Origin: Ruditapes philippinarum
Lineage: Eukaryota
Length of the DNA: 51,988 nucleotides
Reading direction: 5' to 3'
Assembly (NCBI RefSeq): GCF_026571515.1
Contig: NW_026859662.1
Coordinates: 62,001-113,988, forward strand
Positions 5,144 to 47,900 of the stretch are shown piece by piece. The notes beneath the pieces are model-generated. The model searched no databases and was not told the origin of the DNA. It saw only the letters and a list, made by a program, of their open reading frames with translations. The position numbers were made by a program, and so were the translations under genes. Numbering within the stretch: position 1 is the first letter of the stretch; each line of letters begins with the position of its first letter.

Positions 5144-7930
5144 ATGGCTAGCACGATGAACAGTAGCAAGTCCGATCAGCTAATAGACGTACTGAAACAG
5201 GTTCAAGCAAGGAAGACTGTTAGACCAGAAGATGCGACCAAAGCTTTACAACAATATTATAAAGTTCAAGAACACATCAAAGCGCTTAAGTCTGAAATAG
5301 AACTGTTCAAAGCGAACCAAGAACAAAAGGTATGTTTCTTTCCGTTAAAAGTGCCACAGATAATTTTGTTCGAGATTCAAATATTATGCTTTCGGGATGT
5401 TGATTGTAACAGGCTTCTTCGTGAAATTATATAATGTTAGGAACAAATGAACATTTTATGTGATTCATTTGTAAAATTAACCAATATTAATTTATCTTTA
5501 ACAAATTATAATTAAAATGCTGGTATATTAAACATAGGAAGGACAAGCACGGCCAATACCTCAAACTAAGGGTAAAGTACCAATAACAAGGAAGAATAGT
5601 ATTAATTCCCAAAACAATGGTAATAATCAGCAAAGCCCACTATCCAGACAACCGCCACGTAATATAAATGGCACAGTACAAACTAACGGAACTTCAGGAG
5701 CATCTTCACGTTCTCCGAGACGTCCGTCAAAGGTTTCGACCACCGATGATGTCAGATCACAAGGGACACAATCTTCTAAACTTGTTACAAAGAATGGAGC
5801 TACAGGAATACCAAAACCAAATAATCCAGACTCACCTGAGAAAGATAAAGAAGTATCTAGATTAAAGCTACCAATTACTCAAACAAAGGTCACGCCAGAT
5901 AATAAAGTGAATAAGTAAGACATTTTAAGGTTATTTCCTATTCAGTTTTTGTAGTTTATGTACGTATTTCTCGTTTATAATATGTTACTTTTCTTATTTT
6001 AAAATCTTAAAATAAAAGAACAGTATGTTTTTTTTGCTTTAAGTAGTATAGAACTTAATCATTAGCTAATAATTTATATTTATATTTAAGATAAATGTTA
6101 CACGAACATCTAAATGATAAATTGTAGTTAGAAAGCCTTTGGCTGTAAACAAAATTAACGCTTAAAGTTTATAGCTTATATATCTTATAGATGAGATGTG
6201 TTTGATTTTGGTCTATGCAGGGAACCAAACGCCGTTGCAGTCATGGAGAACGGAAACAAAGTTACATTGTTACAAAAGCGTGATATACCTGTCCCTGCAC
6301 AATTAGTGGAGGAATTCAAGAAAATATATAACACAGAATACAAGACTGCCTACCATGATCTTGAACATCATTATAAACTAAAGGAAGACAATATTACCGA
6401 ACTACTAGCAGCAATAGCAAAGGTAAAATCGGCTAAGAGATGGCTTTCTTTACTGGTATAGCATTTATTCTCCATAAATTTGCGTTTTGAAGATCTTTCT
6501 CTAAATTTGCATAACAATGGTAGCTACAGATTAAAACTTCATAAAGAAGAATGTTTTATAATCTGTCAGTCACTTTTACCCGTTATTTATCATTAATTTG
6601 CATCGTTTTTTAAAAACATTCACAACTTACTTTGTCCATATAAATGAAAACTTATTCACCAAGCATGATTTCATTTTAATATGTGGCTTCTTATTCAATA
6701 CAATAAAATCTGCCATATTCATTTTAGGAGGCGTATACATTTTGCACAAACACTTCAAAACAACAGTTTGACGACATATTTAAGGCCCATGCTCATGTGA
6801 TAGATGTACTTGTTCAACCAAAATATGTACCGCAAATCAAAGATACAATGGTGAGTAAAAAAGAAACGGAGCACACTGTCATTTTACTTGTTTAAAACTA
6901 GAAATTCTTATTACTCTTTGTTGCAACGTTAATCATTCCACATTACGTCTTTTAATAACACTCTGGACAACAAAATAGCCAAATGGAAGCCTTGTCAATC
7001 TCAAGAAATTTCATTTATCTATTCATTTTATTTTGTTATTTATATGTGATACTCAACAAATTAGGATTAATGCTGCTGTTGTTATCTTCATCACTTTACT
7101 CAAAATTTTTAAAAGTTATTTCTTAACCTGTCAAGTTCATTTCGACATACCGTCGCAGATAAAACGTTATATCTAGTATTTGTTTCTATTTTTTGTAGAT
7201 ACCAAAGTCGAAATCAATAATAGACAAAGAGGGTTATCAAGTTACTCGCAGATTTTTAAAAGATTATAGACGAGCAATGGCCAAGTTTCCCATTCCAGGC
7301 CTTATAGAAGTATACTTTAAATATTTCGTTATTAAAAGAATATAAATATATTTGAAATTACATTGACATGAAGATACCATAAAGTACTTGTACATCTTAC
7401 TGTTGTTATTTATAAACTATCAGTCCTAGATAGAGATATAAGAAGTATTTAAACAAATGTTCATTCATTTTACTGAAATTTCAATCGAAAGCATGTGTAC
7501 TGATACGAAAAATGGTACTTATATTGTAAAAGTCTAGGAAAACAATTTTCAGTTTTATTAAATATACATAACTAAATGTGTAAGATGATAATTATTTTGG
7601 TTGAACAAAAATATGTTAATCAAACTTGATTTTCTTCAGATTTTTGAAACGATAGTACAACGAGATGTTCTAAATCGTCATACAGCATTACGGATTACAC
7701 CAAAGGCATCACGACCATACATTCATCGTCTCATTGAAGTCAGCTGGTATATGAGTATGCACGAACCACCGTTAGTTCAAGTGTGGCCACGTGGTGGCCA
7801 ATTAATGAACAGAGATTGGTTTACACCGTATGGCAAGAAAGGTGCAACAATTATACATACAGTATGGCCAGCATTGCTTGACCATAAAGATGGAACTCTT
7901 GCGGAGAGGGGAATCTGCCTTGTGAAGTGA
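5144..7930 (+). CDS. Mieap-domain protein, array gene 2 (~429 aa)
   Basis: join(5144-5329,5538-5914,6221-6422,6728-6850,7199-7309,7640-7930) is open throughout, with intron phases 0,2,0,0,0. Motifs FKKIYNTEYKTAY, EAYTFC, FLKDYRR, WYMSMHEPP, FTPYGKKG, VWPALL, RGICLVK*. Exon 2 is an S/N/Q/P-rich linker read in a different frame from the supplied ORF 5668-5865. Confidence 0.88.
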
Positions 7931-8439
7931 CATTTCAGGCTTTATCTCAAAATTGAACTTTCTTAACTGGCTTTCCTAACAAATCATAAAAGCAAATGAA
8001 GATTTGATATAAAGTAAAGCAGTCTTATGAAATTATGTACAGTTTATTTGGAGCTTCCGTTTATTTTATTGTTATTTATATTATAAACTGAATAAATTTA
8101 TCTATTGTATTACGCTATTTAATGTATTTCGTTTTCTTAACATAAACCTGACAAGAAAAATACCTTTCATAAATTTTTATCCGGAAAAAATGTTTCCATA
8201 TTTGCTTAAACAATTTGCTTAACAAGTCTGAGATTAACAAATTACTCCCGTCACTTTGTATAGCTACTTATCAATTAACTATTTCTAAGCTCAATTAAAT
8301 CGTCATCTCATGACAGTGCTTTCAATCACAACCAATTATAAATTGTGTGCTTAACGTATTTCCAAGTGTATATAACAACACTGAAGTAAAGTACGGACTA
8401 ACACTAACATTTTACAGCTGTTGCACAGCACAAGACACA

Positions 8440-8825
8440 TGCTATTGGGAAGTATAAAAATATGGAGAAAGTCTGATCTCTCGGTAGCATTAATCACAAA
8501 TAAATTACATGTAAATTGCGTACTAAGTATTCTGTTTGATTGAGTCTGTACTCGTGAGAGATTATGAAAAAAGTGCAACATCCCTCACGACCCTAGCACC
8601 GGTTTGATTGGTATTCAATTTTCAACACTTAAAAATGCTAGAATCAATTATCCCGAATGACCAGAAAATACTGAAGTGAAGTTCGAAGCAACATTTTACA
8701 GTTGTTATATAGCACTTGACACCTGCTGTTGTGAAGTATAATGATCTGGCGAAAGTTTGGTCCTCGGAATCATTTATCCAAACAAAATTTCAAGAAATTT
8801 GCAGACTCGGTTTGATTGACAATGT
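8440..8825. repeat. Dispersed repeat, two diverged units, related to 30492-30607 and the 40681/40987 inserts
   Basis: Shares CTCGGxAGCATTAATCACAA..AAATTACA and TTGCAGACTCGGTTTGATTGA with the other copies; likely a Helentron-associated repeat unit (inference). Confidence 0.6.
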
Positions 8826-9936
8826 TATCAATTATATCAAAACTCATATATGTTACATTTTAGTTACATTGACACAGTACAGGCCGAGGTAACATGCAAT
8901 GGCTTGCACTGTTTATTTCTTTTGGTAAGCAATATGAATCGGCAAATTTCCTCTTATCGATATAAAGTACCGGTAAATGAACCTCAGCAATAAAGCTACA
9001 GTCACATAACGATTGATTGATTGACTCATTTTTATGGCGTGACTCTGATAGACAATTTCGACGATTTTGCACAAAAGAATTCCCATAGACCTACAACATT
9101 AATGCCTTATCCTTAATTGTTAGAATATGTAAAATATAAATTCGTTAAATTATTTCTTTCATCAAATGCAATATCTTAAATACCGGTATGTTCCTAATAT
9201 TTTGTGTTGTAAAGACCTCACTAAGTTCGACCATGTGTATTCATACATTATATAACCAAATGGGTAAATGAGAAACAATTGAGTAGAATTCAAACCAGTT
9301 GGCATTTTCAGAACAGCTTTATAATCATATTGCATTACGAGAGAGTCTGTTTTGGTATAACAAATTTAATGTCAAGTGACAGATTTATTACTTTCTATTA
9401 TGCTGACAACGAGCAGACTTTAACGTTCGAATCTTGCCTGGCTAAATTACACACTATATAAGAAACTTAGAATAGTAAGGCAGCTTTGAGTAATTGCTTA
9501 GATATAGTTCCTAGGACGTTATTGTATTGCTCGATAGTTAAGACATACTGCAAGTGGTGTAGATAGTCTTGGTTCGATACATTTTAAGAAATCTTTAAAT
9601 ATTTCATTTCCAATCGATATAATACCTTTAAATTATACATTGCATTTTATTTTTAGAGAGGACTATATAACTTTACCATAAACTATTCAAAATAATCGGT
9701 CCATGAAACTTTTCTGAAATTCAATAGTGCTAAATCTAAATCATATTGATATAATAACCTAATTAAATAAGCATTTTCGATGGAACAAACTCTTGTCACT
9801 AATATTGATTTAATTTGAAATCACAAGATAATAATTAACTTATTATTGTGAAATGTAAATTGTAGAAATTGGCAAAGAGATTTAAGATTTCAGGATTACA
9901 TTATTTGATCAAAAAAAGAAGATAAAATAGAACAAG

Positions 9937-12900: not shown

Positions 12901-14000
12901 CTCTTCTTTTATCAAGCCTTAAATGTTTCATAGATCTTACAATAATTTTTTGTTTTAACAGTTCTTTATTACAGGAAAAAGAGAGAATTTTATTATAATA
13001 AATATTCATAGATAAAAAAACCCAAAGCAACATAGCCGTCATATATTTCTTTGTAATATCTATTTTTTTAAAGATATTTATAACTCTAATGACACGATCC
13101 CCTCCTCAGAAAGGAGGAACATTGACAATTGGTGTGAAGAAGTATATCCTGAAGGTTGTAGAGCAAACGTACTTAATGTGTATACAGGTAAAAATATCAG
13201 TTTTACAGCAATATGATTAACAATTTCAATAAAAAGTCAGAGTAAGAAATTATTATCATAAGATGTTCAAGAAGGCAAATACCTTTTTCTTACTTCAATG
13301 ATTTTTCCATAACTTTTAGTTATTATCATATTAGTTATACGTAAGATTATTTCAAGGTTATATGGCGCTACATAAACAGTTGTTTGCATATATAATTCAT
13401 TAAATTGCGAATAAAAACAACGTTTATATACAACCATATAACCTCTCGGGGTTCTTTATCATAAATTTCTAATACAACAAACTTCTTTTTTAGAGAAAAT
13501 GAGAGATTTTATCGTATATTGACAGTAGTCGTATATATAAAACTATATAAATATCACGCTTGTCCACTTAAAAGCGACGTTACAAACGTGCAGTATTATA
13601 ATTATCCATATAAAGTACGTTTTCAACGACTAATGCAAGAAAGAGACGATATCATTATGTCTCAGTTTCAAATTACTATACATCGTTTAGTTAGTGAATA
13701 AGAAGTTAAAGTGTTTTATTCAATTTTTTTTATGAAAAATAATAGTAACTTCGGTTTGAGTTTTTTCTTTTTTTTGACAGGAGCCTCCAATGTGCCTAGG
13801 TAAGATTTGGAGATATTCTGGACACGGAGAAATACAAGCCCTACTCGGGGGAAGGTAGTACAATTGTTGGGACTATCTGGCCAGTAGTCCTTCGGCACAA
13901 AGGAGGCCCAGTCATGAGTAGGGGTATAGTGGATGTGATGTACGGTCAAATAGCCGAAACAAAATCAGTTACTATACAGAAATACAAACATGATAAATAA
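9937..14000 (+). CDS. Mieap-domain protein, array gene 3; extra intron and frameshift in last exon (possible pseudogene, null allele or assembly error)
   Basis: join(9937-10185,10848-10978,11637-11832,12387-12512,12724-12831,13074-13187,13781-14000). Motifs YRAIYDNEYQTAYEEL, LLKDYRR, YLMCIQ|EPPMCL. The homologous tail GDILDTEKYKPYSGEG..IWPVVLRHKGGPVMSRGIV lies in the +1 frame from 13809; the unshifted frame stops at TAG 13856-13858. Confidence 0.8.
10405..10770. mobile_element. Probable non-autonomous DNA transposon remnant (Crypton-like) in gene 3 intron 1
   Basis: Imperfect hairpin ATGCGTCTTTGTTCATTAACATCTGC...GCAGATGTAAATGTACGAACATGGTGCAT and locally raised GC; superfamily guessed from the hairpin style. 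Confidence 0.4.
11811..12175 (+). repeat. Tandem duplication (~185 bp x2) spanning the gene 3 exon 3 donor
   Basis: TATCTTGGCAAAGTAACATGGGTATGT...AAACTTGAAAGACGATATTGTA is repeated as TATCTTTGCAAAGTAGCATGGGCAGTAACATGGGTATGT...AAACTTCAAGTACGATATCGTA. Confidence 0.75.
12176..12318 (-). mobile_element. Truncated SINE, 3' part (probably molluscan V-SINE/RUDI-like)
   Basis: ACACAATTTAGGTCATATAGC...AAGACCTCAGGTGCCC...CATTATTTCA..GGGCACCTGAATAGAACCACCG resembles a common clam SINE as recalled; contains an internal inverted repeat CAGGTGCCC/GGGCACCTG. Confidence 0.55.
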
Positions 14001-16608: not shown

Positions 16609-19600
16609 ATGCCCTACATACCGCCGGTAACGAGTCCCAACATTGAGAAGTTGATGACGTATTTGAACAAGTCTCAGTGGCATAATGTGTCGGCACATTT
16701 CGCTAGCTATGTACGTAAAGAATATGAAAGTTTCATGGAGAAGCTAGATGATGATGAAGAGGTCTTCCGTAATCTTAGGCTTATGATTGAATATTCAGAA
16801 ATGGGCAGGTTTAGTGAGGCGAAGAATCTTATTGATCGTAGCTTTAACAAAGACACTCAAACATATGATTTCGGCACACTCGCCTAAGTCTTAACCAGAG
16901 CTGAATCATCGATAAGGTATTAATTTTACCTAAACAAGCGGTTTATTAACACATTATCAATATGAGGGTGGGCGTTGAAATTTTTTATCATAGGAATTAT
17001 TATAGTAGCACAAATCAGCTGCGGGTGCTGCGTAAACATTAACAAAGGCTTTATGTAAGAGGAGTTTGCTGTTATGACTCGTACATTTTCCCATTGATTG
17101 ATAAAAAATAGAAATGATTTCACATTAATTTGCAGCAAGCCCGGTGTAAATGTAAAGATGTACTGTAAACCATCATGATTCTCAAATAAGTATCAACGTT
17201 ACAAACGGGCAGAGTTATAATTATTTTGAAGAAAAAAAATAATGAAGCGATTATAGAAGGTCAATGGTCTGATACATGACTGTTTATTCAAATCATTGAC
17301 ATTTGAATTACTGAACGTTTGTAATGTTTATAAAGTTAATATACAAGGCTGCTGTCCATTATTTTCTTCAAATGAAAAAAAACCAAAATGCTGTATTAAA
17401 GAATTAGTTTTAAAAATTTTGGCATGGTATGTGGTAGAGTATAACCGGCTGCAAGCCTATATGATTCCTGCCGCTATTTATACTTGACCATATAAGCTGT
17501 CAAACGTCTTTTAAACTAATGATATGTGAAGTAATGTACGAGGTGATAACATATATGTCTTTTTGGAAGTATGATGTTCTTTAGTTTACATATATACATA
17601 CACTTTTTGTCGTGTCACTTACATTCACTCACAAATTGTTTCAGTTCTAAAGAAAATAAAAAAAGAATTTTCATTCCTACCTACCTATTTCTATGAAATG
17701 GAGACATCCCTGTCACATTCCAGTAACTTTGATGCCATATTTATACGAGCCTTTTTTCTTTAATTTAACTCATAATCAAAATGAATGACATTAATGTTGT
17801 GTTCTGTAATTCATGTCAGTTAAATAATATCACACACTGTTATTGAGACAGATTTCCCCAAGACGACCGCCGCATAGACCAGTTGAACATCAAGATCATT
17901 ATAACCGACGTGATGCATATACCCCTGATAGACGAGATCTAGCTACTCCACCAAAACGTTCTACAAACCCACGTGAAGATCATACTCGTGGCAACCCAGG
18001 ATATGAAACACCTAAAAGACATGAGGTAATTTGAAATTTGTCCGGGGCCAGCAAAATCAATTCTTAACTAGTCTGTCAATTCATTAGCTTAAATGTCTTC
18101 AAATTACTTTCACGATATGTGCAGATTCTAATATCTCTTGGTATATTTGATATCAGGAAGTCACCCATCTTGAATACGGAAATCACGTGACTCTTAATTC
18201 AGTGTCTTACCGTGTTTTTTTTTCCTCAACACGAAAGCTTCATATTCGCCGTATGTCCTATGCTGAGTAGTTATAGCACACACAGGCACAAATGAACATT
18301 GTTAAATATTGTTTGTTGCACACAAGAAAGATTCAATCATAACCTAGATATAGCTGAGATATTTCTTAGATATTTATCACATACCTTCTTGTAATATGTA
18401 ACGGACGTGTTTTAATGTTACATTTCTTTTTTATATCTTGAGACAAATTACAGAGTAGAAATTCGGTTTGAATGATAAAGATATGAATGATGTATTTTAA
18501 TATAGGAAATACACGACAGACATCCAAGAACACCTCAATATCAACATGATCAAGGTCCTCAATATGATATACATAGGGTGAGTCATAAATAAGGTCACTT
18601 GATAAGTTATTTTATTAATAAGATAAATTACGCGTACCTTTTCATAATTTTCATTCCGTATTTGTATTTTTCTTTCGTTTTAGAATAGCGTAACTTTTAT
18701 GCATCATTTTACATTATAAAGTAAAAGCACTATACCGAATTTGTGTTCATTCATTCATAATTTTTCAGGTCATATTTCTTTCACTCGAATCGGCCCTTAA
18801 TTTGCCTTGTCCGTTTTCATATCTTCAACATTTTGTGAAGCACATACTGGCCCGTTTTATTATAAGCTGTCCAAGTGTATTCTCATTAAAATGTAAGTAT
18901 CTTTTAATAGAAAAATACTTTTAAATACTAAATTTAAATTTTAAATGTTTTAAATTTTTTATCTAAGATATTGATATCTTTCTTACCATAGCAAAATTAT
19001 GAAAATCTCCGACTAAAGACACCTGAGCAACCAATGAAATACGACTCGACGGGAAATGATTCACATGACGTACATGGCAGCCGACCCAACAGTCATCGTG
19101 CAGACAGGCAAACACCACCTGTGTCTGGAGTTCTCACTAGCGCATCCCAGATGACGTCATCAAAGGCACTCTGGGGTCGTGATTTTGGGGACAAACCAAG
19201 CGAAAAAGTTGGGTCCAGTACATACAGGCAGGATTTCCCAACGTATGCTTTAGACCATCATGAACGTAAAGACAAGGAAAGATATAGAGAAAACTTCGGT
19301 TCGTTAGCTGAAAGAGATATTTATCGCCGAGATAGCGATGATGGTTCAATCCAGGGAGATCAGAGGTAGGTATTACGTCAGTATTTACAGATATAATTGA
19401 TTTTCAAAAACACTTTTTTCAAATGTTGTTTCCATTTCTTCCTAACGCTTTTAATCTTGATATATTAATTTTCTATTGTTCGAAATCACATAACTTGCGA
19501 TATATCAATGAAAATCATTTTCAACACAGAAAAATTTCATCACATTGTTTCGTTTACGGATGCAAAATGTGATTTTTTAAAAAAAATGTTTCATGACGTT

Positions 19601-22577
19601 TGATTTTTCTTAAGAAGATCGGCACAACATGCACGCCATATTGAAACACCAGATCACGATAACAGACCTGTTGAATTAGGTAAACGGTTCAGAGAACTAT
19701 ACACTCATGAATGGACAGATGCCTATGATGAAATATGTAAGGACTTTGGTTCCGAGAAAACCGTGCGACATCTTCTTTGGATTGTAACCGTACGTTTCAG
19801 TCTAATATTCATATGTAATAACTTATCTTATATTTGATATAATATAGTCTTATATTTGATTTAAAAAAAGTTTGTAAAATGAATTCAATTTATAATGTTC
19901 GTAAATTTAAATATTTACAAAGTTAAATAGTTTTAATATTTTATATATGTGACAAACATTGTAAATCGTTCTTAATTACCAAAAATAAGTTTTTGTTATT
20001 AAGATAATAATAAAAAAACAAGATAAATTTATACACTCTCAATCGTTTATAGATATAATAAATATCATTTTAAATCAAGCTATATTGAATATCATAAACA
20101 CGTTCAATATTTTTATACTTAGATTTATTTGTTTTTTTATTATCAATTATTAATCACATGTACAAAGCAAATTTTAATATTAACATTATTTTCGCCAATG
20201 TCGAAACATATTACATATAATATCAAACCTGGCGGTATTTGCAGGAATGCTCATTGATAGCAAATGATGTCGCTGATCATCAGCTCAGAATTTTAGAGAA
20301 AAAAGCATTTGGTGTAATGACAACCCCCGGTGATGTCGAAGTAATTCTTGCACTGCATGATTTCAAGTCCCTTCACTGATTGGAATATTATCCATTACCC
20401 ACACACCTTTTAAGATAGATGATTTGAATAGCAACTATATACTCTGTAAAACAGAACTTTCAATTTCCCTATTTCTTTAAATTTCTTGTGTTCTTTTCTG
20501 ATTGGTAACCTGGCGAATTATCCGTTGACAATTCGCTATTTTTTAAACAATTCTAGCGACTTTCTATTGAAATTTCGGTCCATAAGTTAATTGCCTTTTG
20601 ATAATAAGAACACATGATACCAAAAGGGTACATGTCAAATAAATTATGTATTGTAGCAAAAAGATAATAAAACATACAAATTGGATAATAACTTCAATTT
20701 TTTTAATGTGTGGGTGATGATACTGTTCTATTCAATGAATATACTTTGTAAAATCCTAGGTTTATAATATATTAGATGGCATAGTGAAATGTGCGTTTTG
20801 TTACAGGAAGCATGGTTGATATCCGGAGATGTTGCCGATAAACAGCTTAAAGACCTTGAAAAAACTGCAATACGTTTAATGAAAACTCCAAATAAAGAAA
20901 TCTTAGTGACGACCCCTACACCTACACCAACTCCTTCTTCATCTTCCTATCCTACACCTACGCCTGATAATGTAATACTTGAAATAAGCTTAATCAGAAC
21001 CGCTTGTTAGTATCACGTCGATTGTGTTGTTTCAATAAATTCCTTATGTTTCATGTAGGCAAGCTTGTTAGTAACACTTCGTTCATGTTGACTCAAGAAG
21101 TTCCAGGCAAACCAGGTGCCAAACTGATAATGAACTTTCTCTAATTATCAAAATGGTAGAAAACTGATACTTGATTCAACATGACTAGCCATATTAATTT
21201 GAAAGATCTCGGTAAATGTCTTTCAAGGAAGTAATAAATGAATAAATGCGACATGGTATTTTGAATCCATTTTGATTCTGTAAGAAGCTGTTTATCGAGG
21301 TTGCATCACCGCTATCTTATTTATTCCGTTTAACACATTACTAACATAATCATATCCACCTTATAACACAAGGTAATTTTCATGAAATTAATTCATTTTT
21401 AATACAATTATACTTACAATTACTTCTTGTGATTACTGCAAATATAAGTAGATAATGCTTAATCATTTTTATTTTCAAAATTTTTATCGTGCATAGCTGA
21501 AAAACAACAGATTTTTCTTCTTTTCCATTTTAGAAAGACTTCGTAGTAAAAACATGTCAAATATTTTAGTAGCAATTATTCAATGGCAATATCATTCAGT
21601 ATTTAGCTTTTATCTTGTTTTTATTATAATTGTAACTTTTCTTTTTGTATAAAATAATTTCATTTGTATTTAATAATCTTACAAAGCTTTCCTTGATGAA
21701 GTAAAATATGTGCTGTATTAAGTATTTTTGTTTAGTATATAAATCCTAAAAATTACCATTAAAGTAGTCTACACATCGAATACTAAATACTCAATTTACT
21801 GAGTCTGTTTAGATCATAATTATTTTTATAATTTTTAATTTATAAAGCATGGTAGTTTTATTCCCCGTCAACTTGGAGACACTCTCCCAGCTTCAAGGAC
21901 GCTTCTACTGAAGTACAGGAAGCAAACAGCTGTGTTGTCAATACCGTATGTTAAAGAGGTAAAAATGTTAGACAAAATTGATAAAAAATATACATTTTTT
22001 TTTAAATTTTACCTTATGTCTGAAAATAATGTCGTCTTTTAATTGAAGTATTTAGAAATGGGAACACCAATGTCAGTTTAAGCTATCTATATACTAGCAT
22101 TGGTCTATGAAACAATATTTGTCAAACTTAATTCTTCTAGTGAATTACATGCAGGTTAATTATTGTTTTAATGACTTATATACTTCAAATGAAGAGATTT
22201 AACAAAATATATGAATATTTTTATACTGTTTTTGAAAGTTTATATGAGAATATGTATTGTTATTTTAGGAATGTCGAGAAAAGATCAGTAAAACATTAAT
22301 TGAATCATCTGGATTTCCCAAGTCCTATCTCAGCGATGCATCACGTTTAACTGCTTACATTAACAAATGTGCTGAACTGACGTGGTTAATGTCTGTCCAG
22401 GATCCTCCTATTGTCCTAGAATACATCACCAAGGAAACCGAGGGAGCTCGATTCAACGCTGAACATTACCATGTGTACACGAAACCTGGCAACACTTACG
22501 ACTATGGAGTCTGGCCAATGCTTAGACAGGGCAAGAAAGGACCAATTATAGCCAAAGGAATAGCTCAAGGGATATAA
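16609..22577 (+). CDS. Mieap-domain protein, array gene 4, long disordered linker; first coding exon has in-frame stop
   Basis: Putative exon 1 16609-~16916 (MPYIPP...; TAA at 16885), then 17852-18025, 18506-18577, 18992-19365, 19615-19789 (RPVELGKRFRELYTHEWTDAYDEI), 20245-20340 and/or 20807-20971, 21848-21958 (LLLKYRK), 22269-22577 (YINKCAELTWLMSVQDPP...YHVYTKPG...VWPML...KGIAQGI*). The frame is intact from 17852 onward; the exon 1-2 junction is unresolved. Confidence 0.78.
20245..20340 (+). CDS. Gene 4 duplicated exon A (candidate mutually exclusive exon)
   Basis: ttgcag|GAA...GAA|gtaatt, 96 nt, phase 0/0; ECSLIANDVADHQLRILEKKAFGVMTTPGDVE. Confidence 0.75.
20807..20971 (+). CDS. Gene 4 duplicated exon B (candidate mutually exclusive exon) with T/P/S tail
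   Basis: ttacag|GAA...AAT|gtaata, 165 nt, phase 0/0; EAWLISGDVADKQLKDLEKTAIRLMKTPNKEILVTTPTPTPTPSSSSYPTPTPDN. Confidence 0.75.
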
Positions 22578-24491: not shown

Positions 24492-27400
24492 ATGACTTCA
24501 AAATCAAGTATTCACTTAATGATATTTTATATGCAAAGCAGGGAAATGTTTAAATTAACACCTCAGCTCTGCAGGCTAGCCAAAACTGAGTATGAGGAAA
24601 CAAGAGCAAAGCTTCCCGATGACGTCAGAGGTGACGTCAGTTTTGACAAAGTGTTGCATCTCATTGAACACGTGGAAAAATCGGAATTTGCTAAAGCAAT
24701 TGAACTTTTAGGGGAGGCATACAAAGAACATGAAGAGATGATGAGTTATTTTCCAAAGAAGAGCAAAGAAAAGCATGCGAAGGTAAACTTATCTTAATTT
24801 GAATGATTCGGTGTCACATTTATTAACATAACTATGTCATGTAAGAGACTTGTTTGATCCTTATATCAAAACATTCCAGCACTGATTCATGGGTGTAAGC
24901 ATATGTTTGGGAGTTATAATGTTTAATAATTTTCATATCTTTGTAGAAAATTGAAGAAGCGGGATCACCGTCTATATTGGAAGAAAAATGGGAACAACCC
25001 GTGCGACCCGATGATATCCCTACGCCTCCAGCTGTAAAGCACACACCCAATGAAGACGATAGCAGAAATTGGAATAATAAATCACCAACTGTATCAAAAG
25101 ATTATGACACAATGAACATTAATGGCAAAGGCACCGGAGATGAAGACAATAATAGGTAAACTGAAAACATATTGATATTTGTAATGAATAACTTGATTAA
25201 AGACACATCATCTATAACGCTTTCATTGTTAAAAAATGTGAACATACAAAATTTACTGTATGCATACTCGTATGTACCATTTCCAAAAGGTGACAACTAT
25301 AAGGTCTCTAATTTCAAAACTTTAATACTAGTGAACTGGATAAAGATATCTGTCAGTAATATAGATGTTCCGACAAGTTTTAAAACAGAAGAAAAACACA
25401 CCGTAAAACTTAAAAGAAATAACAATTTGAATTAAACATACAGCCATTTAAGTGACGTAATGACGCGAGAAAGAGATAAAAATTAGTATTTTATTGCGCT
25501 TGTTAAAAATGAATAAAGAAAAAGCCCTATAAACAAACTGACAATAATATTAATAAATTGGAATAAGGTAATTGCAACAATGATTTTCCTTTTCACTTTT
25601 ATTATCTTAGTATTAAAAAAGTAAACAACAATTTGAATATATTGCTTCTTTTTATCAAGTCATAGGATGACGTATCTCACAACATTTAGAAAGCGTAATG
25701 GCAAGGCTGATTATGAGACAGTGTATGTATCAAATAGTCCTGCAGTGCTTGCTGACAAGTTCACAGAGATATACAAGAACGAATGGAAATCAGCTTATAA
25801 TGAACTCGAAGTTGTTCTCGGTAACAAACAGACTATACGACATATGTTGTGGATTATTGCAGTATGTATAAATGTTCTATCACACGTTTGCATACCATAC
25901 TTGTATATCATGCATTTGAATTAAAGGTTTTAAGCACATTTTTTTTTAATTTTGTAAAACCTTAAAGTTAAAGGTGCATAATATATTAAAAAAAGTAAAG
26001 TAATTTTCAAAATGTGACAACGTTGAATATTAAGATAAGAAAAATACAAAAGTAAATGACGATAGCTCAAAAATATTTTATTTGATTAATTGTCACTTGC
26101 ATTTTTATACCTTAAACGCATTATTAAGCTGTAAATACAATGAATTGATTGATAATTGTTGTATAATTGTCATATACATTATAGATATGTGCAAATCTTT
26201 TCGCCAATGTTGGCCGTGCGAGACGCACAGAAACAAATTAATCCTGTATTATCTAAATTTAAGACACACATACCTTCTGTAAAAAAAGCACAAATGAGGA
26301 TAACTTCCTATTTACTAGAATAACTTCTTTATATCTTTTATTCAGAAATCTTCCATTATATGTGCAAACTTAGCAACTCAACAATTATCAGATGTGGAAA
26401 ACTCAGTTGTTGGTATTATGGTGTCACGAGATCCGTTAAACAAGGTATTGATGTTTGCCGAATAATTCAATTAAATCATCTTACCTGTAATTTTCAATGT
26501 GTTGTTTTTGAGTGTATGCCAACACAACATTTCGTCATACATTAAACTTCTCTTGCTCTATGTTACCACCTTTCATGAATTTTAAGCGCAAAAATCCGCT
26601 TGTTTTCGGCATTTATCAAACTTTATTTAGAACTTACGGTTTCCACAACTGTCCTGGGAAAACAGGCAAAATTATCATTTCTTCGTTTTGAATTTTAAAT
26701 CATTATTCTGTAAATGTCCTCAAAATGAATCCACTAGGCAGTCACAGGTACAAAACTGTTCTTCTTTTAAAGAATAAACTGGTGGTTTCGTAACTTGACC
26801 CACGCGGGTCAGGTAAGAGAGTTATAATATAGCGTTCTCAATAGTTGTCACAGATAACTCTAGAAACGGTAAAGAACATGTCAACTGAATGACTTACACT
26901 TGTTTCAATCATTGTAGTTTTCAGGGTTTGTTCGAGTTACATGACATGTTTTAAAACTAATCGGTGTTCTGTCGGCTTCTAAATTTTGTTTAACATGTAT
27001 AGATATATTTAAGCCCCAAACGCAAAATATACAGAATTTATACAGAAATTCATGCTGGGATTTTAAAAAATGTCATTTTATTGTGATTTGAGTACATACG
27101 ATCATTTTAATATTTTTGTCAATAATTTGCCTGAGTATCACAGTTTAACAGATTTTGGCTGTGTAATAAGCTGTTTTTATAAAATTTGAAGTAAATTATG
27201 TTTAAAAACTAAGGCATGAATCATTGCATGTAATACCATATCAAATAAAAAATCAATTATCTTAACAGAAGTCATTGATTGATGAAACATTAGCAAATAG
27301 AAACGAAAACGCTGTAGCAAAAGCAAGAAGTATGCTTGTAGATTATAGAAGAGAGCTTTCAAAACTGTCTATCCCTATGTTACAAAAGGTAAAGTCTATC

Positions 27401-28138
27401 TTGATCTGTCAGCAAATAGTATGTAAATAATAAAATGCTAACATAAACTGATTACTTACTGCCATTTATTTCAAAAGTATACAATTCGTAATTACCATTT
27501 TATACAGGTGCAGTAAATACAGTTAATATTGACAACAATATTACGTTACATGGTGTTTGTCGACACTTCAAATTATCCTGCGTTTAGCTCTCTATCTTGG
27601 ATTTTTTTGTACATCACCTATTGTTGTTTTTTCTCCTTTGACTGAGAGGAGTTAAAAAAAAATAGCCAAGCAGATCCTTTTCCTGAAAGATGTATTGCAA
27701 TTTGCCAATGTATTAAGTTTTATACTTAACATTATGATTAAATGGAGCACGCTCTAATATTGCTGTTCTTCATAAACAGACTACAAGTAAACACATTTTC
27801 AAAATTAAAAGCACGAGTTGTGTCTTGACTTGCAGGAGATAAGACGTGCGATCGCATCTGAACTTGGAACATCTCTGCCAAGAAGATTTACAGGGATCGG
27901 TAACCATTTTGTTGACTATGCCGAGAAGTGTATTGAAGTTATATGGTTAATGTATGTACACGACCCACCTATGCATCTGGAATGGTTGACCAGGGAGCAA
28001 GAGGGGACGTCATTTAAAACTGATTTATACATGTCCTATACGACACCTGGAACTTTATACGATTATTGTGTCTGGCCAGTTGTACGTCTTCATAGGAATG
28101 GCCCTATTTTGTGCAAAGGAGTAGCACAAGGGAAATAA
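24492..28138 (+). CDS. Mieap-domain protein, array gene 5 (~407 aa)
   Basis: join(24492-24782,24947-25155,25660(or 25666)-25861,26346-26444,27269-27388,27836-28138), phases 0,2,0,0,0, open frame. Motifs FTEIYKNEWKSAYNEL, MLVDYRR, YAEKCIEVIWLMYVHDPPM, YMSYTTPG, VWPVVRLHRNGPILCKGVAQGK*. Confidence 0.88.
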
Positions 28139-30491: not shown

Positions 30492-30607
30492 TATAAATAT
30501 CTGGAAATAAAGTGATCCCTCGGAAGCATTAATCACAACAAAATTACAAGAGAATTGCAGACTCGGTTTGATTGAGTCTGTTCATGAGGGATAATGAAAA
30601 TGTGCAA
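30492..30607. repeat. Dispersed repeat unit, near-identical (inverted) to the insert at 40681-40776
   Basis: About 4 mismatches over ~96 nt versus the reverse complement of 40681-40776, by manual alignment. Confidence 0.85.
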
Positions 30608-36600: not shown

Positions 36601-37934
36601 TTACTGCATATTAGACAACTGTTTACTAGGTTTAAGACTGATAGATGCAGCTCTAATATAAGCCCAGTATTTGTACATAGCAACGAGATAGTGTCAGATT
36701 CCGGTTGTGTGATTTTAGTCATATACATAACACTGCATTTTGTATTATAAACAATGTTTCAATGTTCCAGGAGGCATACATTTTCACAAAGAAAGAGGCT
36801 GAGAAACAGATACTTAAGATGAACTCGACCATTATGAATATTTTGGAAAGTGGAGATACGAAAGGGAAACCCTCAGTAGTAAGATTTTTATATTAAATCT
36901 TATCTCATATAACTACGGTATTCTATTCGGGCCATCCTGATAGATGCATAATTCGAAACAGCGAAAACACGGAAAAGGTTGATAAATGTCGAAATAACGA
37001 AACCACGAAAAACCCCTTTTTTAATTGATTTTTTATCGTCGTTTATGCACTCAAAACTGATTGTACTGATACATCAAGTTGTTTATATTTCTAATAGGAA
37101 GACTTATTCATATGTCTTTCTTTATGAATCAAGACATTTCGTCCTTAATATTCACTGATGTTAATTAAATTTTATTTCATACAGAAAGACATGCAAAATG
37201 ACGTAAGCTTGTTAGTCCAGTTTCGCAAACAGCATGCAGAAAGGTCCATAAAAAGATTACAGGCAGTAAGTTTTATTTATAAATACGTATATTCTACATT
37301 TCAAACAACAACTTGTCAAGAAACTTGTAGTTAGAGCTAACCAAATTCTCGTCAAGTAATTGACGGAATGTTATAATATTTCTCATCAAGTTAAATTTGT
37401 CGAAACCTTACTTTTTTCCTGTTTTATGTGTTTTTGACTGACAATTACATCAAACATTGTGTTTGTAAAGAGAGAATCTAGCATAAGTGATTGTTTCTAA
37501 AATATTACTATTGATTTAAGTTATAACACATGCTTTATTCTGTTTTGATATTTACAATGCAATATTTTTTTTGAAAAGATAATAGAACAGGCCTATGAAA
37601 TAGGATTGATGAGTATTTATCTGTGTATTCTTTTTCAAATTCAAAGAACTTTGCTGTCGAGGTAAGAAAGATGTGTACCAAAGTTGTAAGTGGGAAGCCG
37701 CCTACAGATAAGAGTGTAATGATAACATATGGTAACAAAGCTGTAGAACTTACATGGTGGATGTGTGTACAAGATCCCCCTGTTTACATGGTAACATCTC
37801 GAGACAAATTCAACCCCGATTTCTACAGGGCTTATACCAAATCAGGAACTATCCCAGACTTTTATGTCTGGCCGCCATTGAAGCTGCATAAAAGTGGTGG
37901 TATATTGGCAAAGGGTGTTGTACAGTACAAATGA
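33679..37934 (+). CDS. Mieap-domain protein, array gene 6 (~376 aa)
   Basis: join(33679-33954,35307-35488,35996-36191,36771-36878,37185-37265,37647-37934). Motifs NNPDIADLSDHNRPTKIAERYTQFYDNEWTTAFE, EAYIF, LLVQFRK, VELTWWMCVQDPP, YRAYTKSG, VWPPLKLHKSGGILAKGVVQYK*. The exon 2 acceptor is an uncommon GAG, so its 5' edge is less certain and further small linker exons cannot be excluded. Confidence 0.87.
34210..34277. repeat. (GT)n/(GC)n compound microsatellite in gene 6 intron 1
   Basis: TGTGTGTGCGTGCGTGCGCGCGCG...GTGTGTGTGCGTGTGTATGTGTGTGTG. Confidence 0.9.
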
Positions 37935-41636: not shown

Positions 41637-42144
41637 ATATGTGTCAAGTTGTAAAGTGCAAGCCGCTTTAGTAATAACCTTTAGTCTGTAGCCAGAGATG
41701 ATTTTGTCATTCTACGATGATTCTGTATTATGTACGTTTAGTTATATTTATTATAAACAGGTACACAAAATGTATGGGGAAAGTAAGATATACAATGTAA
41801 TTCATTATTAAACATATGCATGCATAATGCTCCGCAAACCGTCATCCATCTAAACTTTACGGAGCAGGAACAAGACACTCCACTACTCCCCATGCCCCCT
41901 ATAAGGATTTAATCATTTGAAACGGCCGAAAATGGATAAATTGCTCGTTTTGTTCAGCTAGTTCGTATGGAAAACGAAATCGTTAAAGCCTTTTAAAATT
42001 GTGATATATATGCTTGTTGTCGAGTAAGTTTTTTACGTATAGCTGTAAAGCAATTTTTCGGGATACATCGCTAATGCTTACAGACACCTCACCCTAAGAC
42101 ACTGTACACTCTAGAAACCTGAGACACTTTATTAAAAGATGAAG

Positions 42145-42345
42145 TGTGGTGGCATGGCCGTGTGACTAGTATCTTAATGATCGCTAGCCGCATGGGTTCA
42201 AACCCCGTTAGGCGCAAGCCGTTCTTTCCTTGAGCAAGAAACTTTACACTCATTGCTAAGTACGTACTGGTTGGTTCCAGGAACGGATTCGAAAGTGTCT
42301 ATAAGCTTATAGCTTCATACACAATCAAACTTAAATAAATTCTGT
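42145..42345 (+). mobile_element. tRNA-derived SINE nested in the foldback element
   Basis: A box TGGCCGTGTGA (~42155), B box GGGTTCAAACC (~42194), CORE-like TCCTTGAGCAAGAAACTTTAC, then AGTACGTACTGGTTGGTTCCAGGAACGGATTCGA and an AT-rich tail. Confidence 0.7.
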
Positions 42346-44976
42346 ATGAACCAAAGGTGAAATGTCCTCTATATTTAAGATTTGAAATTTAAGCCGGGGG
42401 GGGGGGGTTAAGTGTCTTGTTCCATCACCGATATACCGGTCCGGAATGTTGAGATTTGCAAGGCATTCTGTATGCATTTCTTATAAAGTTATAAAGTCCT
42501 ACGTAGGAGTAGTTAAAAGTCCTACGTAGGAGTTTAAAAGTCATACGTAGGAGTTTAAAAGTCATACGTACGAGTTATAAACTCCTAATTAGGCTTTTTT
42601 ATCTCCTACGTAGGAGTTATAAAGTCCTACGTAGGAGTTAAAAAGTCCTACGTAGGAGTTTAAAAGTCCTACGTAGGAGTTATAAACTCCTAAATAGGCT
42701 TTTTTATCTCTTACGTAGGAGTTATAAAGTCTTACGTAGGACTTTAAGTCCTAAGTAGGAGTTTAAAAGTCCTACGTAGGAGTGACAAACTCCTAATTAG
42801 GCTTTTTTATCTCCTACGTAGGAGTTTATTTTTTTATAGAACATTAAGAATTGGCACCAGGACACTTCCGTAATAACATGTTGATATATTGGTTGTTTTG
42901 AAATAATTAAATTTAGTATATAATGTTACATTTCATTGGCGTCACTGATACTGCATACCACTTTGTGCTTCAAAATTATCTTTTTAAGGGTATGACTGGT
43001 AACATGTCCGGAGTCCGTACTCGACAGCAAAGCTGCATTTTGTGGCCTTACGAGCGGATGGACCATCATTAAGCATAGGCTATAAATAGATAGCATCATT
43101 GATAACAAAAGAAACTTGATCTGCAGATTGAACATGAAGTGTAATGTTTTTTAAGAATGGTTTTAAAGCAATTCAACAAAAAAGTATATTGATCTCCCAA
43201 TAAATCAATTAACAATAGTTTTTTATATATCACCAATGTCAAATAGCTTTTATATCTTTGACTCGCACGAACATGATGTTAGTGACTTTCCTTATACCTG
43301 CCTATAATTCAAGTAACAGTCTTCTATTATATTGATCAATACTGTATCACCATTTAACGCGTATATAACAAACAAAAATATCCTGAATTTGGTCTTTTTG
43401 AAATTCATCCAATTTTTTCATTCCAGAATGAGTTCTACTTTCAGTATTGAAAGAAACCTTTTTTTTTAATGTTAAATTAAAAAATGCATGTAATATTACT
43501 ATATTATCATATTAGTCCCTTTTGTTACAAATTGTATATTACAATTATAATAATAAAAACAAATAGACTTTGATATTTTTATAATCATATGTTACTGACT
43601 ACAGTAGTGACACAAACAGAACATAGTACAGTCATGTCACATAACACTTACAAGTCTTGTAAGTCTTGTTTGTATTCAATGGAATTACTTTCTTTTCCAG
43701 GTAGGCATCAGTAAAAGCATTTTTTATATTAAATATTTTTCCCCTCTTTTTAATTATGGACAGTGCATAAGATAAATATAATTATGCAAAAAATGTTTTA
43801 CAAAACATTCGGAAAAAAATCTACAATAGTACTTCTGAATATAACATGACCTGTGCGCAGCAATAATTTGATAAAGTATCTGTAATGAGCGCATTTTTTT
43901 TGCGCGGAGCTTCTCAATTGCTCAACATTTGTACTTTTTGCTTTGGTGTTTTAGAGTGTATCAGAGGTCTCTGATGCGAAAAATTGATGACCCTAACAGT
44001 ACACCGTAATTCATAGATTATCAAATATCTATTAAATTCATCTTTATCGTATTATCAACATTTTAACGAGAGGTTTACAATTCACCTCAATGACTAATTG
44101 ATTTGATTTTATGTCGTGCTGAATGCAATGACAAAAATATCAAGATTTTCATTTTCCATGTTTAAGGTAAAAAAATTAATCACTTATTTTTATTATGATT
44201 ACCATTTTTTTCTAGTGGCATAGTTTTAAAGACTTGATTCTCGAACTTACTTAAATCAACACAAATCATTCTGATAAAGTTTGTCGAAGGTAGAAGTTTA
44301 ACCACGGTGTTAATATAATTTGTCCTGTAAAATGATATTTACCGTGTCTCTGATGACCGATCTTTTAAATTGAACTAGAAAAGACCAGCATTTTGAGCAG
44401 GTTGCAATTAGACAGGATAAAATTGTGGTTTCTAGAGTGTCATCGAAGTTTTCTTTGATCCAAGCTTATCATCAAACTGTGAACCTCAGTCGACTTATGA
44501 AAATAAATATTATAACAAAGCTTGATTACGATGCAATTGAAACTTTGGTCATCAAATGTGTTTGTAGGATTTCATGGAGAGATACAATTTACATCGACTT
44601 AACCTTTCATCCCCTTCCATACCATTATCTTTACCCACTGTATTTTAAAACGTTCCTGTATATAACTATTATCGGATATCTTACTGCCTTCTATGAATAT
44701 ACATAGATAAGATAAGTATTTAAAATTTACTTTAAAATTCACAAAATTTGACTTTAGTTTTTAATGACGCGATAGAGATTAAGGATTAGAATGACTAAAA
44801 TCGTATTATTATAAACTACCGTACAGATATACATAAAAGTGGTGGACTTTTATCATGTTACAAATGCGGAAGTAAATAAGAATTAAATAAAATTTCTTTT
44901 TGCATTTCCAAGAAATCATAGCATAATATATTACGTGTCTCAACAAGGAAGAAATAATACAAGACGTGTTAAAATC

Positions 44977-47900
44977 ATGGAACCATGGGGAAATTTTGGT
45001 ATTTCGAAGCTTATGTCTGGTGTTGAGAAAGGAATGTCATCGGATTTGAGGAATCTTTGTTATGAGGCAGAAAAGGATGTCAGCATGATAGAAAGAAAAA
45101 TTCAGTTAGGACACAGGAAAAAGATAGAACCAATTAAAAAATTGATCGATGATGTTGCTCATATGAGAGTATGTAAGCGAGAAGAGGTGAAGGAAGTGCT
45201 ATCGATATTTAACGAATACGTAAAACCATTCTTGGAGGTATATATATTATACTATTTATGTGTTGAGTTAAACAAAGAGTTGCTAAATTGTTTCCAATTA
45301 GCCGGTTTTTTTATATAATACAGGGTAGAAGAACTACAACTCCCGGTGTGGGTTTGTTTTGTATACAAAATGTATTTAAATAAAAGCCTAAAAACATAAA
45401 TACTTAAAAACTTTTTGTCACAGTTCTCATGTCACCGACTCTCAAATTCATATATCAAGTTAAACTGTATTAATTAATTAACACGCTGTTAATACATTAA
45501 CAATTGTATATTACCTGTTTTTAAGGAGGAAGAAAGAACAAAATCTGATATTGATAAAGGCTCAAAGAAAGATCCTGTTAACAAAGATGATGATAACTTC
45601 AGTGGAACAAACGAGAATGAGAAACAAAAATTAGATAATAATACCCTACAAACAAAACATCTTCAGGATATGAACACGTAAGTTCAGATAATACAGTGAT
45701 TATACGAATTATGCGTGTAAAAAGCTTTTCGTGCCATGCACTTATGTAGTTAACGATACTGTAGGACCATTGTATTTTTTGAAAATTTTAAACAATATTG
45801 CGAGACTATTCAAAAGATATACATGTAATATGTCTTACCCAAAATATATTCAATGAATTAAATTTGAAAATGTGTTTTTTCCTATCTGAAAAGAAAAGAA
45901 AATGGCACTCCACATTCATTGTCATATATTTTATTGTGTCAGAGAGATGCATCAGATATATATTTACATTATACATAGTTTGTATCTAAAACATAGTATT
46001 TTTTTTTTTTCAAAAGGCTATCCCCCAACACTCCTTTAAACAATACTTGGATACGGTACATTTTAACACATTTTTGTTGTTTAACTTCAGATCAATAAAA
46101 AGAGGAATAGACGGACTTGTTGATGCATTTCGAGAGCTTTTCTTGAATGGTCATTGGAAAAAACTGTTTGATGATATCTCGAAACGCACAAATTCCCAGC
46201 ATCTGAGCACTGAATGCATTATGGAAATAGTAAAGGTAAAAAATTTAAAAATATAGTATATGAAAGATGTAAGAGTATCTTTATCTTGATGTTTTTTTAC
46301 CGGTGACGAGTGGATTTTGCCAGAGGCGCGGCGGCACCATGTATTACTTTTTAAAAATATTTATATATCCAAATTATCTAATTAGAAATGGACAAAATTT
46401 GCAATATCTTATCTTACTTATGATATTCGAACGTGTTCAGATTATCTAGAGAGGCTTTTATTGTATATAAAGGTCTGGATGTGCTAGATAAAAACATACA
46501 GGTGACTCTTACATATATTGCCCTGCTTCTTCTCGTATTTTAAACTGACTGCTAAATTTCTATTCATTACATAAGCAATTAACTTATATTCAACAGAAAG
46601 CGTTTAAAATAAGTAAGATTGAGGCTGCCAAACAGATTAGTAATGCAAGACAGTGTGCAAAACAGATAGTAGAGACTGGGGAGACTGAGGATGTACGTAT
46701 ACATACTCAGATTTATCTTTATACCTTCTATTACTTTGCATTGTATTAAATCTGTGAAGTTAAAATCTAAATGTTATATGTCAGACACATATTAGTGTGT
46801 TTATGCAGTACCATAGAAATCAGGAAAAAAATGATAAATTAATTGCTAAAGAGATGATAAATGTGTAACACCTCTCACGCCTTTTAGTGGAGTTTATCTG
46901 TTAATATTTAAAACGTATTGGATATTATATTCTAAAGGAACTGTTATTCTAACAATATTTACTGTACCCTAATCACAATCATAGGGACGTTTCAGACGAG
47001 TTTCGTGTAACATGTGTTTTTTATATCTGAAAATATTTGTGCAAATTCCATTAATCAGTGTGTTCGAAAAAATTAATTAATTGTCCTTTACTTTCTGAAG
47101 GTGTCTACTGACGATATCCATTCTTCAAAGCATATGGAATCCTCAGACGAACTTCTTCGTAGATATAGATATATACATGCAGATATGTCAACAGAAAGGC
47201 TTCAAGGAGTAATGTTCATTTCCATATATTTTTTCATTTTTAATAAGTGTAATTTTAAACAGTGCGAAAAATGTTTTGATCCAAAAGGAATTATTGTGTA
47301 TTATTGTCTGCCAATTAACATATTGAAGGTAGAAGATTAATTCAAACAGTACTCCTAATTAATTGTAAGTGTGCCTTTAAATTGTATTTAAAAGTCTAAT
47401 TTTAAGAGCATACTCCAGTTCTTAAACTAACAAATACAGGCGTCGTATGAAGAAACGTGGTGGTAACCTACAGGTGTCGAATCCACAATCCCTGTACTGA
47501 TAGGCTTACAAATTCACCACTACGCCACCGCTTCCCTTTAAATGATTATTTTGAATTCCTTAATTTCGGCTTTTTAAATATGTTTGTATGAAAAGGTAAT
47601 TCTTCAAACTTAAATGGTTTTAAAGAAAATCCATTTGATTGTTTTAATTATCAACACATTGCCTGTAATCCTATTTTGAACATAATGACAATGCTTGTAT
47701 TCTCTTTATTTCAGCTTCTTTTACAAAAAGTTAAAACATTCCTTTTTAAAACTTACAATATTGAGACGGAAGAGAATATAAATCTTGCATTGTTCATACG
47801 TGATTGTGCTGCCATAACATGGTTAATGTGTGTTGAGGACCCACCAATTGATATGGTATATGACAAATGTTCAGACAGAATGGACGAGAACAAATATGAC

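What the first reader, a model, noticed from the sequence alone, without database searches (positions are those of the whole stretch)
5144..45237. Unnamed N-terminal helical domain encoded by the first coding exon of every complete copy
Seen: the first coding exons share a loose amphipathic pattern. g2 QLIDVLKQVQARKTVRPEDATKALQQY; g3 DLVATCLAKLQDGIKVTPLEATDALKQY; g4 NIEKLMTYLNKSQWHNVSAHFASYVRKEY; g5 SIHLMIFYMQSREMFKLTPQLCRLAKTEY; g6 AIERVFATIEMKKVASLDDVCINNAEAEV; g7 GISKLMSGVEKGMSSDLRNLCYEAEKDV. Genes 4-7 continue with a second helix pair (e.g. LRLMIEYSEMGRFSEAKNLI / VLHLIEHVEKSEFAKAIELL), whereas genes 2-3 run into a short coiled coil. Inference: a one-exon helical-bundle module in long and short versions that may act as the interaction or effector unit. 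I do not recognise it as a named domain.
Basis: partly seen in the sequence, partly recalled or inferred. Interest (0 to 1): 0.7.

Follow-up and report, generated by a model that had tools for sequence, protein, structure and literature searches.

The report
Hairpin-bundle cap on clam Mieap proteins
In a clam gene cluster of mitochondria-eating-protein (Mieap) relatives, the first exon encodes a small helical module with no named family, predicted to fold as a four-helix bundle in four genes and as half of one in the others, which likely lets each copy pick its own binding partner.

Summary
All quoted peptides are present, each in the first coding exon of a tandem MIEAP (PF16026) gene. They form two families, not clearly one. 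The long form (g4-g7) is one homologous domain of about 90 residues (22-37 bits with close relatives removed), made by duplication of a 33-residue helical hairpin (hhalign 95%). AlphaFold2 predicts a four-helix bundle (pLDDT 87.5) with only generic fold matches (Z up to 7.4). The short form (g1-g3) is one hairpin running into a long helix. Short-long homology is probable but unproven (hhalign 13-21%; sister groups on a core-domain tree, SH-aLRT 93). No Pfam family fits; every named relative is a bivalve MIEAP protein. Exon 1 of g2-g5 is 67-84% identical between orthologues, yet paralogues from different subgroups do not align above chance, as expected of a paralogue-specific interaction cap. 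Binding was not tested. A full-length model resembles GrpE weakly. Real and unnamed, but an ordinary fold.

The parts
5144..5329 (+). g2 first coding exon, short form (one hairpin plus long helix, 62 aa)
   Evidence: 73% and 80% identical to orthologues P0034 and P0035
9937..10185 (+). g3 first coding exon, short form; hairpin from about 10036, preceded by a 33-aa extension of low model confidence
   Evidence: orthologue model helices 41-50 and 57-82; equals P0003 residues 1-83
16609..16914 (+). g4 first coding exon, long form; frame open to 16884, tail from about 16837 departs from relatives and ends in a stop in this assembly
   Evidence: open counterpart P0037; orthologues P0005, P0007 72-75%
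24492..24782 (+). g5 first coding exon, long form (two hairpins; predicted four-helix bundle, helices at residues 6-15, 24-40, 52-62, 66-85)
   Evidence: 72% identical to P0002
33679..33954 (+). g6 first coding exon, long form
   Evidence: equals P0001 residues 1-92
44977..45237 (+). g7 first coding exon, long form
2530..2811 (+). g1 last exon, MIEAP core (its short-form exon 1 lies 6.8 kb before the window, L009:3182-3349)
   Evidence: PF16026 E 2.8e-12; P0031
7640..7930 (+). g2 last exon, MIEAP core
   Evidence: PF16026 E 1.5e-7
13781..14000 (+). g3 last exon, MIEAP core, with a frameshift near 13790-13800 in this assembly
22269..22577 (+). g4 last exon, MIEAP core
   Evidence: PF16026 E 1.7e-11
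27833..28138 (+). g5 last exon, MIEAP core
   Evidence: PF16026 E 8.5e-9
37647..37934 (+). g6 last exon, MIEAP core
   Evidence: PF16026 E 5.1e-9
47715..47999 (+). g7 last exon, MIEAP core
   Evidence: PF16026 E 1.9e-9

Best explanation
Exon 1 encodes a small helical module at the N-terminus of one bivalve branch of MIEAP-domain proteins, predicted to be two hairpins forming a four-helix bundle in g4-g7 and a single, probably related hairpin in g1-g3, and it likely works as a paralogue-specific binding cap rather than as an enzyme or pore-forming effector. Shown: the two sequence families, the internal repeat of the long form, the one-exon layout, and strong conservation within orthologue groups. 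Predicted: the folds. Inferred: the short hairpin exposes the hydrophobic face that the second hairpin covers in the long form, so it would pair with a second copy when two chains are held together by the downstream coiled coil; a duplication of the hairpin would have made the self-contained bundle, whose outer surface would then be free to recruit partners to the MIEAP core.
For: Long family: 22.0-36.8 bits for g4-g7 after removing relatives of 30% identity or more; short family 23.8-35.9 bits for g1-g3. Internal repeat: probability 95.1%, P 3e-8, 0 of 40 block shuffles as high. Model: pLDDT 87.5, pTM 0.76; best matches are up-down four-helix bundles (talin Z 7.4, rmsd 3.9, 97 aligned; PsbQ Z 6.9, rmsd 2.6, 80 aligned). 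Short form: helices of 10 and 26 residues, block pLDDT 82-86, like the 10-11 plus 17-20 pattern of each long hairpin. Short-long link: summed score of 8 short representatives 35.8 against shuffled mean 17.5, 0 of 200 as high; sister groups on a tree that excludes exon 1; same exon position and phase-0 end. Conserved columns are almost all hydrophobic or small, plus one Glu in 43 of 46 rows; no catalytic pattern. Orthologue identity 67-84% for g2-g5, close to that of the core exons (51-84%). In human Mieap the N-terminal region is proposed to recruit enzymes while the C-terminal region binds lipid (PMC10845071, passages).
Against: Short-long hhalign probability is only 13-21%. Singly, only g1 stands out from its shuffles (2 of 200); g2 (131 of 200) and g3 (50 of 200) do not. 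The tree join has SH-aLRT 93 on a branch of 0.017, 141 columns, no star, midpoint root, and the database rows were collected by likeness to this window's genes. Z of 7 is within the range of chance arrangement for helical bundles (note). In the g6/g7 group exon 1 is only 29-30% identical to the nearest relatives while the core is 36-66%. Other clam MIEAP genes have other helical first exons, so a hairpin before a coiled coil may arise repeatedly.
Confidence: 0.55

Rival explanations
1. The long and short modules are unrelated: a four-helix bundle in g4-g7 and an ordinary helix-turn-coiled-coil start in g1-g3 that look alike because both are amphipathic helices.
For: Cross-profile scores 0.6-8.7 bits and -1.0 to 1.7 bits; hhalign 2.7-5.3% and 13-21%; 11 of 15 pairwise comparisons at chance; further helical first exons in other clusters.
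Against: Ensemble score above all 200 shuffles and an ungapped-plus-one register around a shared turn glycine; score rose when one more short member was added; sister groups on the core tree.
Confidence: 0.25
2. The module binds membrane or condensate surfaces through amphipathic helices and so sets where each paralogue sits, rather than binding proteins.
For: Amphipathic helices; human Mieap is reported to sit with its N-terminus outward on lipid-rich condensates (PMC10845071, passages).
Against: The hydrophobic columns fit a buried bundle core in a confident model; exons are near neutral in charge and the first 25 residues carry net -5 to +2, unlike a cardiolipin-binding or import helix (comparison from general knowledge).
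Confidence: 0.1
3. The long module is a cell-death or immune effector of the MLKL/HeLo/CC type that is released by the core and permeabilises membranes.
For: It is a predicted N-terminal four-helix bundle on an expanded family (143 PF16026 matches in the genome).
Against: No such Pfam family among the 25 of 90 listed or the 25 of 34; no PDB sequence match under E 0.04; one-to-one orthologues at 72-75% identity across clam families are not what a fast-evolving immune effector usually shows (general knowledge), although the g6/g7 group does diverge fast.
Confidence: 0.05
4. The long module is a TPR/Fis1-like adaptor that links these proteins to mitochondrial fission machinery.
For: ESM Atlas first hits for g5 exon 1 are Fis1_TPR_N clusters, score 0.93-0.94; single weak TPR_2 and TPR_8 matches (E 0.006, 0.047).
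Against: Atlas recognition 1825 is below its 2300 threshold; PF14852 finds only one other locus in the genome at E<=1, not these exons; that exon is not among the five best frames of its locus on the long profile (best 3.3 bits); hairpin spacing is about 47 residues, not 34.
Confidence: 0.05

Closest known systems
MIEAP / SPATA18 family (Pfam PF16026), bivalve expansion (orthogroup OG24 in PMC8382680)
   Same: All seven genes carry the MIEAP core; six last exons pass the Pfam cut-off and g3 matches by orthologues. Tandem expansion agrees with about 53 genes per bivalve in that paper (passages).
   Different: The N-terminal module is outside PF16026 and was found in only 11 of 78 other clam MIEAP genes with enough upstream DNA. 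Whether the N-terminus of human Mieap is related was not tested.
Up-down four-helix bundles (talin rod R3 and full-length talin, TLNRD1 4-helix bundle, PsbQ, cytochrome b562-like)
   Same: Best structural matches, Z 6.9-7.4 over 80-97 residues.
   Different: Identity 4-14%, Foldseek E above 2, no Z of 8: a shared arrangement, not shown homology.
GrpE / GrpEL1 nucleotide-exchange factor (PF01025)
   Same: Top hits for a full-length model in both programs: Foldseek ranks 1-5 (best E 0.086) and VIA ranks 1-3 (Z 6.7-6.9, 143-145 aligned); long helix, helical domain, C-terminal beta head. GrpE is a homodimer through its stalk (PMC12987570, passages).
   Different: rmsd 15.6-18, no E under 0.001, no sequence signal against the clam's own GrpE. 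GrpE has a disordered N-terminus, not a folded cap. The match concerns the core, not exon 1.

Membership tests
MIEAP (PF16026) - host proteins | C-terminal MIEAP domain above the curated cut-off | tested here: met
   6 of the 7 last exons scanned and all 6 above 27 bits; g3 by orthologues carrying PF16026
MIEAP (PF16026) - host proteins | Mitochondrial location and quality-control activity | not testable with these tools
   No functional data for these genes
MIT domain | Three-helix bundle (recalled definition) | tested here: not met
   Model has four main helices plus one short linker helix
MIT domain | Structural match to solved MIT domains | tested here: inconclusive
   Not among the 50 rows shown
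Death fold (DD/CARD/DED/PYD) | Six-helix bundle (recalled definition) | tested here: not met
   Five helices at most, two long ones
MLKL / HeLo / CC four-helix bundle | N-terminal four-helix bundle | tested here: met
   generic feature
MLKL / HeLo / CC four-helix bundle | Sequence or structural match to family members | tested here: inconclusive
   Not listed; lists are truncated
MLKL / HeLo / CC four-helix bundle | Membrane permeabilisation on oligomerisation | not testable with these tools
   Needs experiment
TPR / Fis1 N-terminal TPR (PF14852) | Match to the family profile | tested here: not met
   Genome search at E<=1 scored 31 candidates and found one locus elsewhere, none in this contig; g5 exon has no Pfam match at E<=1
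TPR / Fis1 N-terminal TPR (PF14852) | 34-residue repeat spacing (recalled definition) | tested here: not met
   Equivalent positions of the two hairpins lie about 47 residues apart
GrpE (PF01025) - host protein core | Stalk helix, short helical domain, beta head | tested here: inconclusive
   Top hit in two programs but E 0.086, Z 6.9, rmsd 17.6
GrpE (PF01025) - host protein core | Sequence similarity to GrpE | tested here: not met
   Profile of 96 last exons against one clam GrpE exon: -0.6 bits, 170 of 407 reported shuffles as high; a single-sequence test
GrpE (PF01025) - host protein core | Nucleotide exchange on an Hsp70 | not testable with these tools
   Needs experiment

The most novel reading that the evidence does not exclude
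Bivalve MIEAP paralogues are GrpE-like dimeric co-chaperones of the co-expanded HSPA12 ATPases, and exon 1 is their pairing code: short hairpins complete a four-helix bundle between two chains and so decide which paralogues dimerise, while one lineage duplicated the hairpin to make a self-contained partner-binding bundle. This would catch a half-domain to full-domain transition inside one gene array and give the HSPA12 and Mieap expansions a shared, testable mechanism.
Probability: 0.12. Interest if true: 0.75.

Novelty: new variant of a known kind. Interest (0 to 1): 0.37.

Why it matters
Mieap-like genes are among the largest bivalve-specific expansions (PMC8382680) and have no known mechanism beyond the name. 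A defined, folded, paralogue-specific N-terminal module gives a handle: it can be expressed alone, swapped and deleted, and it separates one branch of the family from the rest. The single-hairpin and double-hairpin forms in one array are a possible natural example of bundle origin by duplication. The fold itself is common and the range seems limited to clams and freshwater mussels, so the wider impact is modest unless the GrpE/HSPA12 link holds.

Tried and rejected
RNA evidence: no RNA holder was listed for the stretch; laying four raw RNA runs on 4950-24949 showed reads piling on repeats (8285-8951, 11620-13620), depth mostly under 3 elsewhere, and no splice joints among the rows shown, so expression and the g4 and g3 breaks are untested. 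Foldseek against PDB and BFVD gave no E under 2 for the long model; no MIT, death-fold, MLKL/HeLo or TPR chain was among the 50 VIA rows shown, which does not exclude them. PDB sequence searches with three profiles gave nothing under E 0.04. ESM Atlas for the short form gave only unnamed clusters at 0.87-0.90. My early guess that g3's 33-residue extension is a first hairpin was dropped: it is poorly conserved (31-78%) and mostly under pLDDT 50. The N-terminal exons of the clam gene with the best PF16026 score were not found in 30 kb fetched. Shared module on HSPA12-like proteins: none in 20 chosen PF00012 loci, best E 0.18 against 0.24 for reversed frames. Linkage: no contig is shared between the PF16026 and PF00012 match lists (compared by eye; both lists are lower bounds). 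A scan for prokaryotic GrpE loci found none, so a profile-profile GrpE test was not possible. The first tree had the wrong exon assigned to g6 and g7 and was replaced. PMC7159879 (passages) does not mention Mieap.
Full report
Setting. The window holds seven tandem genes on the + strand, each ending in a MIEAP (mitochondria-eating protein, PF16026) exon; six last exons were scanned and all six pass the Pfam cut-off, and g3 matches through orthologues. Database records identical to g3 and g6 are labelled Ruditapes philippinarum. The genome has at least 143 PF16026 matches, in line with a reported bivalve expansion of about 53 genes per species in orthogroup OG24 (PMC8382680, passages). g1 starts 6.8 kb before the window. 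Contig C5923 overlaps the g7 end at 88-95% identity and carries five more long-form genes, so the array probably continues.

Observation. All eight peptides checked are present. Exon 1 runs from ATG to a phase-0 donor in g2, g3, g5, g6 and g7. In g4 the frame leaves the family pattern at about 16837 and stops at 16885, while P0037 has the same exon open; g3 has a frameshift in its last exon. Both look like local assembly errors, but this is inference: RNA reads were uninformative. Pairwise alignment supports only g2-g3 and g4-g5 clearly (2 of 15 pairs).

Two families. Homologue searches gave 8, 21 and 12 proteins. A profile from 14 outside proteins scored g6 26 bits and g7 24 bits and aligned to the g4/g5 group with probability 83%. 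After removing every member with 30% identity or more to the test exon, g4-g7 scored 22-37 bits on the long profile and g1-g3 24-36 bits on the short profile; reversed exons scored at most 4.2. Cross scores were 0.6-8.7 bits one way and at most 1.7 the other.

The long form is a duplicated hairpin. Its two halves align with hhalign probability 95.1%, P 3e-8, over 33 columns; 0 of 40 block shuffles reached that score. AlphaFold2 on g5 exon 1 with 46 sequences gave pLDDT 87.5 and helices at 6-15, 24-40, 43-48, 52-62 and 66-85. Foldseek found nothing under E 2. VIA-align over 48,161 chains gave no Z of 8; the best rows are up-down four-helix bundles (talin Z 7.4, rmsd 3.9, 97 aligned; TLNRD1 Z 7.3, rmsd 3.7; PsbQ Z 6.9, rmsd 2.6, 80 aligned). 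Conserved columns are hydrophobic or small, with one Glu in 43 of 46 rows.

The short form. In a full-length model of the g3 orthologue P0006 it is a 10-residue helix, a 6-residue turn and a 26-residue helix at pLDDT 82-86, followed by a 43-residue helix. Its link to the long hairpin is weak by profile (2.7-5.3%; 13-21% and P 0.001-0.002 with 16 rows). Eight short representatives together beat all 200 heptad-shuffled sets, but singly only g1 stands out, and g2 and g3 do not. A tree of the MIEAP core without exon 1 (109 rows, 141 columns; 16 genes with too little upstream DNA and 8 duplicate or fused records left out) puts 13 of 13 short rows in a group of 16 (SH-aLRT 88) and 27 of 28 long rows in a group of 29 (86), joined at 93 on a very short branch, apart from 63 of 68 other rows. 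I put common origin at about 70%. Which hairpin the short form matches is not settled; the second scores slightly higher.

Range. The long profile found 37 proteins at E<=0.001 among 1.84 billion representatives: 14 full-length MIEAP-type proteins (11 of them seeds or their near copies) and 23 records of 91-134 residues that look like exon 1 read into its intron and give no context. Named sources are Ruditapes, Mercenaria, Mya, Dreissena, Mactra and Sinanodonta; no oyster, mussel or scallop name appeared, but most records are unnamed. In 1.27 Mb fetched around part of the PF16026 matches, 7 long and 4 short modules were found among 78 other MIEAP genes with at least 6 kb upstream or a preceding gene. 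No Pfam family matched more than 4 of 46 long or 3 of 15 short members. Nine literature searches (listings, plus passages of six papers) showed no description of this module.

Conservation. Exon 1 of g2-g5 is 67-84% identical to orthologues in other clam families, about as much as the core exons (51-84%), and more than the linkers in g2, g4 and g5 (29-70%). In the g6/g7 group it is 29-30% against 36-66% for the core. A folded, non-catalytic module that is fixed within orthologue groups and different between them fits a paralogue-specific binding surface. This is inference; no binding test was possible.

Mechanism. The full-length model has GrpE as top hit in both programs (Foldseek E 0.086; VIA Z 6.9, rmsd 17.6, 145 aligned), without sequence support. 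GrpE dimerises through its stalk (PMC12987570, passages; no mention of Mieap). If these proteins also dimerise, two short hairpins would sit side by side and could complete one bundle; the long form would be the fused version. Earlier scan notes report HSPA12-like genes paired with GrpE/MIEAP-like genes in fungi (unchecked AI notes), and HSPA12 is expanded in this clam (PMC6831834, passages). Here I found no shared contig and no copy of the module in 20 chosen Hsp70 loci, so that link stays a lead. Mieap-family transcripts are reported enriched in mussel gill (PMC5549309, passages).

Comparison. It is not a death fold or MIT domain by helix count, and not a Fis1 TPR by profile or spacing, despite an Atlas lead below its own threshold. 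An MLKL/HeLo relationship is neither shown nor excluded.

Verdict. A real, unnamed accessory domain of one bivalve MIEAP branch, with a clear internal repeat and a common fold; the unity of short and long forms is probable, the function inferred. Interest 0.37; new variant of a known kind.

Noticed in passing
window 11554-14000 (MIEAP core of g3; model of orthologue P0006): The predicted full-length structure has GrpE as best match in Foldseek (ranks 1-5) and VIA-align (ranks 1-3), suggesting the MIEAP domain is GrpE-like; weak scores, no sequence support, and only one paper in the library holds both words (listing only).
   Followed up: partly
window 16837-16914 and 13790-13800: Local frame breaks in g4 exon 1 and the g3 last exon; relatives are open at both places. 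Probably assembly errors.
   Followed up: partly
window 20245-20334 and 20807-20899: g4 has two similar copies of one internal coding exon (both match the same orthologue segment); Mya record P0004 shows the same pair, so the duplication or alternative exon may be old.
   Followed up: no
L149:470-5656 and L033:4222-6451 (contig C5923) against window 43957-51988: Contig C5923 overlaps the window's 3' end at 88-94% identity, apparently another haplotype, with a frameshifted g7 exon 1, and continues with five more long-form genes.
   Followed up: partly
L009:3182 to window 2811: g1 (P0031, labelled 'Daple-like', 1004 aa) has the short module, then about 700 residues of coiled coil and low-complexity sequence, before the MIEAP core.
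   Followed up: partly
L027:4426-4641, L052:1061-1555, L092:2992-3372, L107:5193-5738: Other clam MIEAP clusters have different upstream helical exons that also look like hairpins but do not score on either profile.
   Followed up: no
L153-L172: HSPA12-like single-exon Hsp70 genes; many begin with an MG motif and a repetitive low-complexity N-terminal stretch (possible myristoylation, from general knowledge).
   Followed up: no
window 8285-8951: A repeat between g2 and g3 draws about 430-fold RNA read depth from elsewhere in the genome.
   Followed up: no
L006:4672-5049 and L007:3153-5548: Upstream neighbours on the contig read like a ribosomal protein S3a exon and a RING/B-box (TRIM-like) gene (recognised by eye, not scanned).
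   Followed up: no
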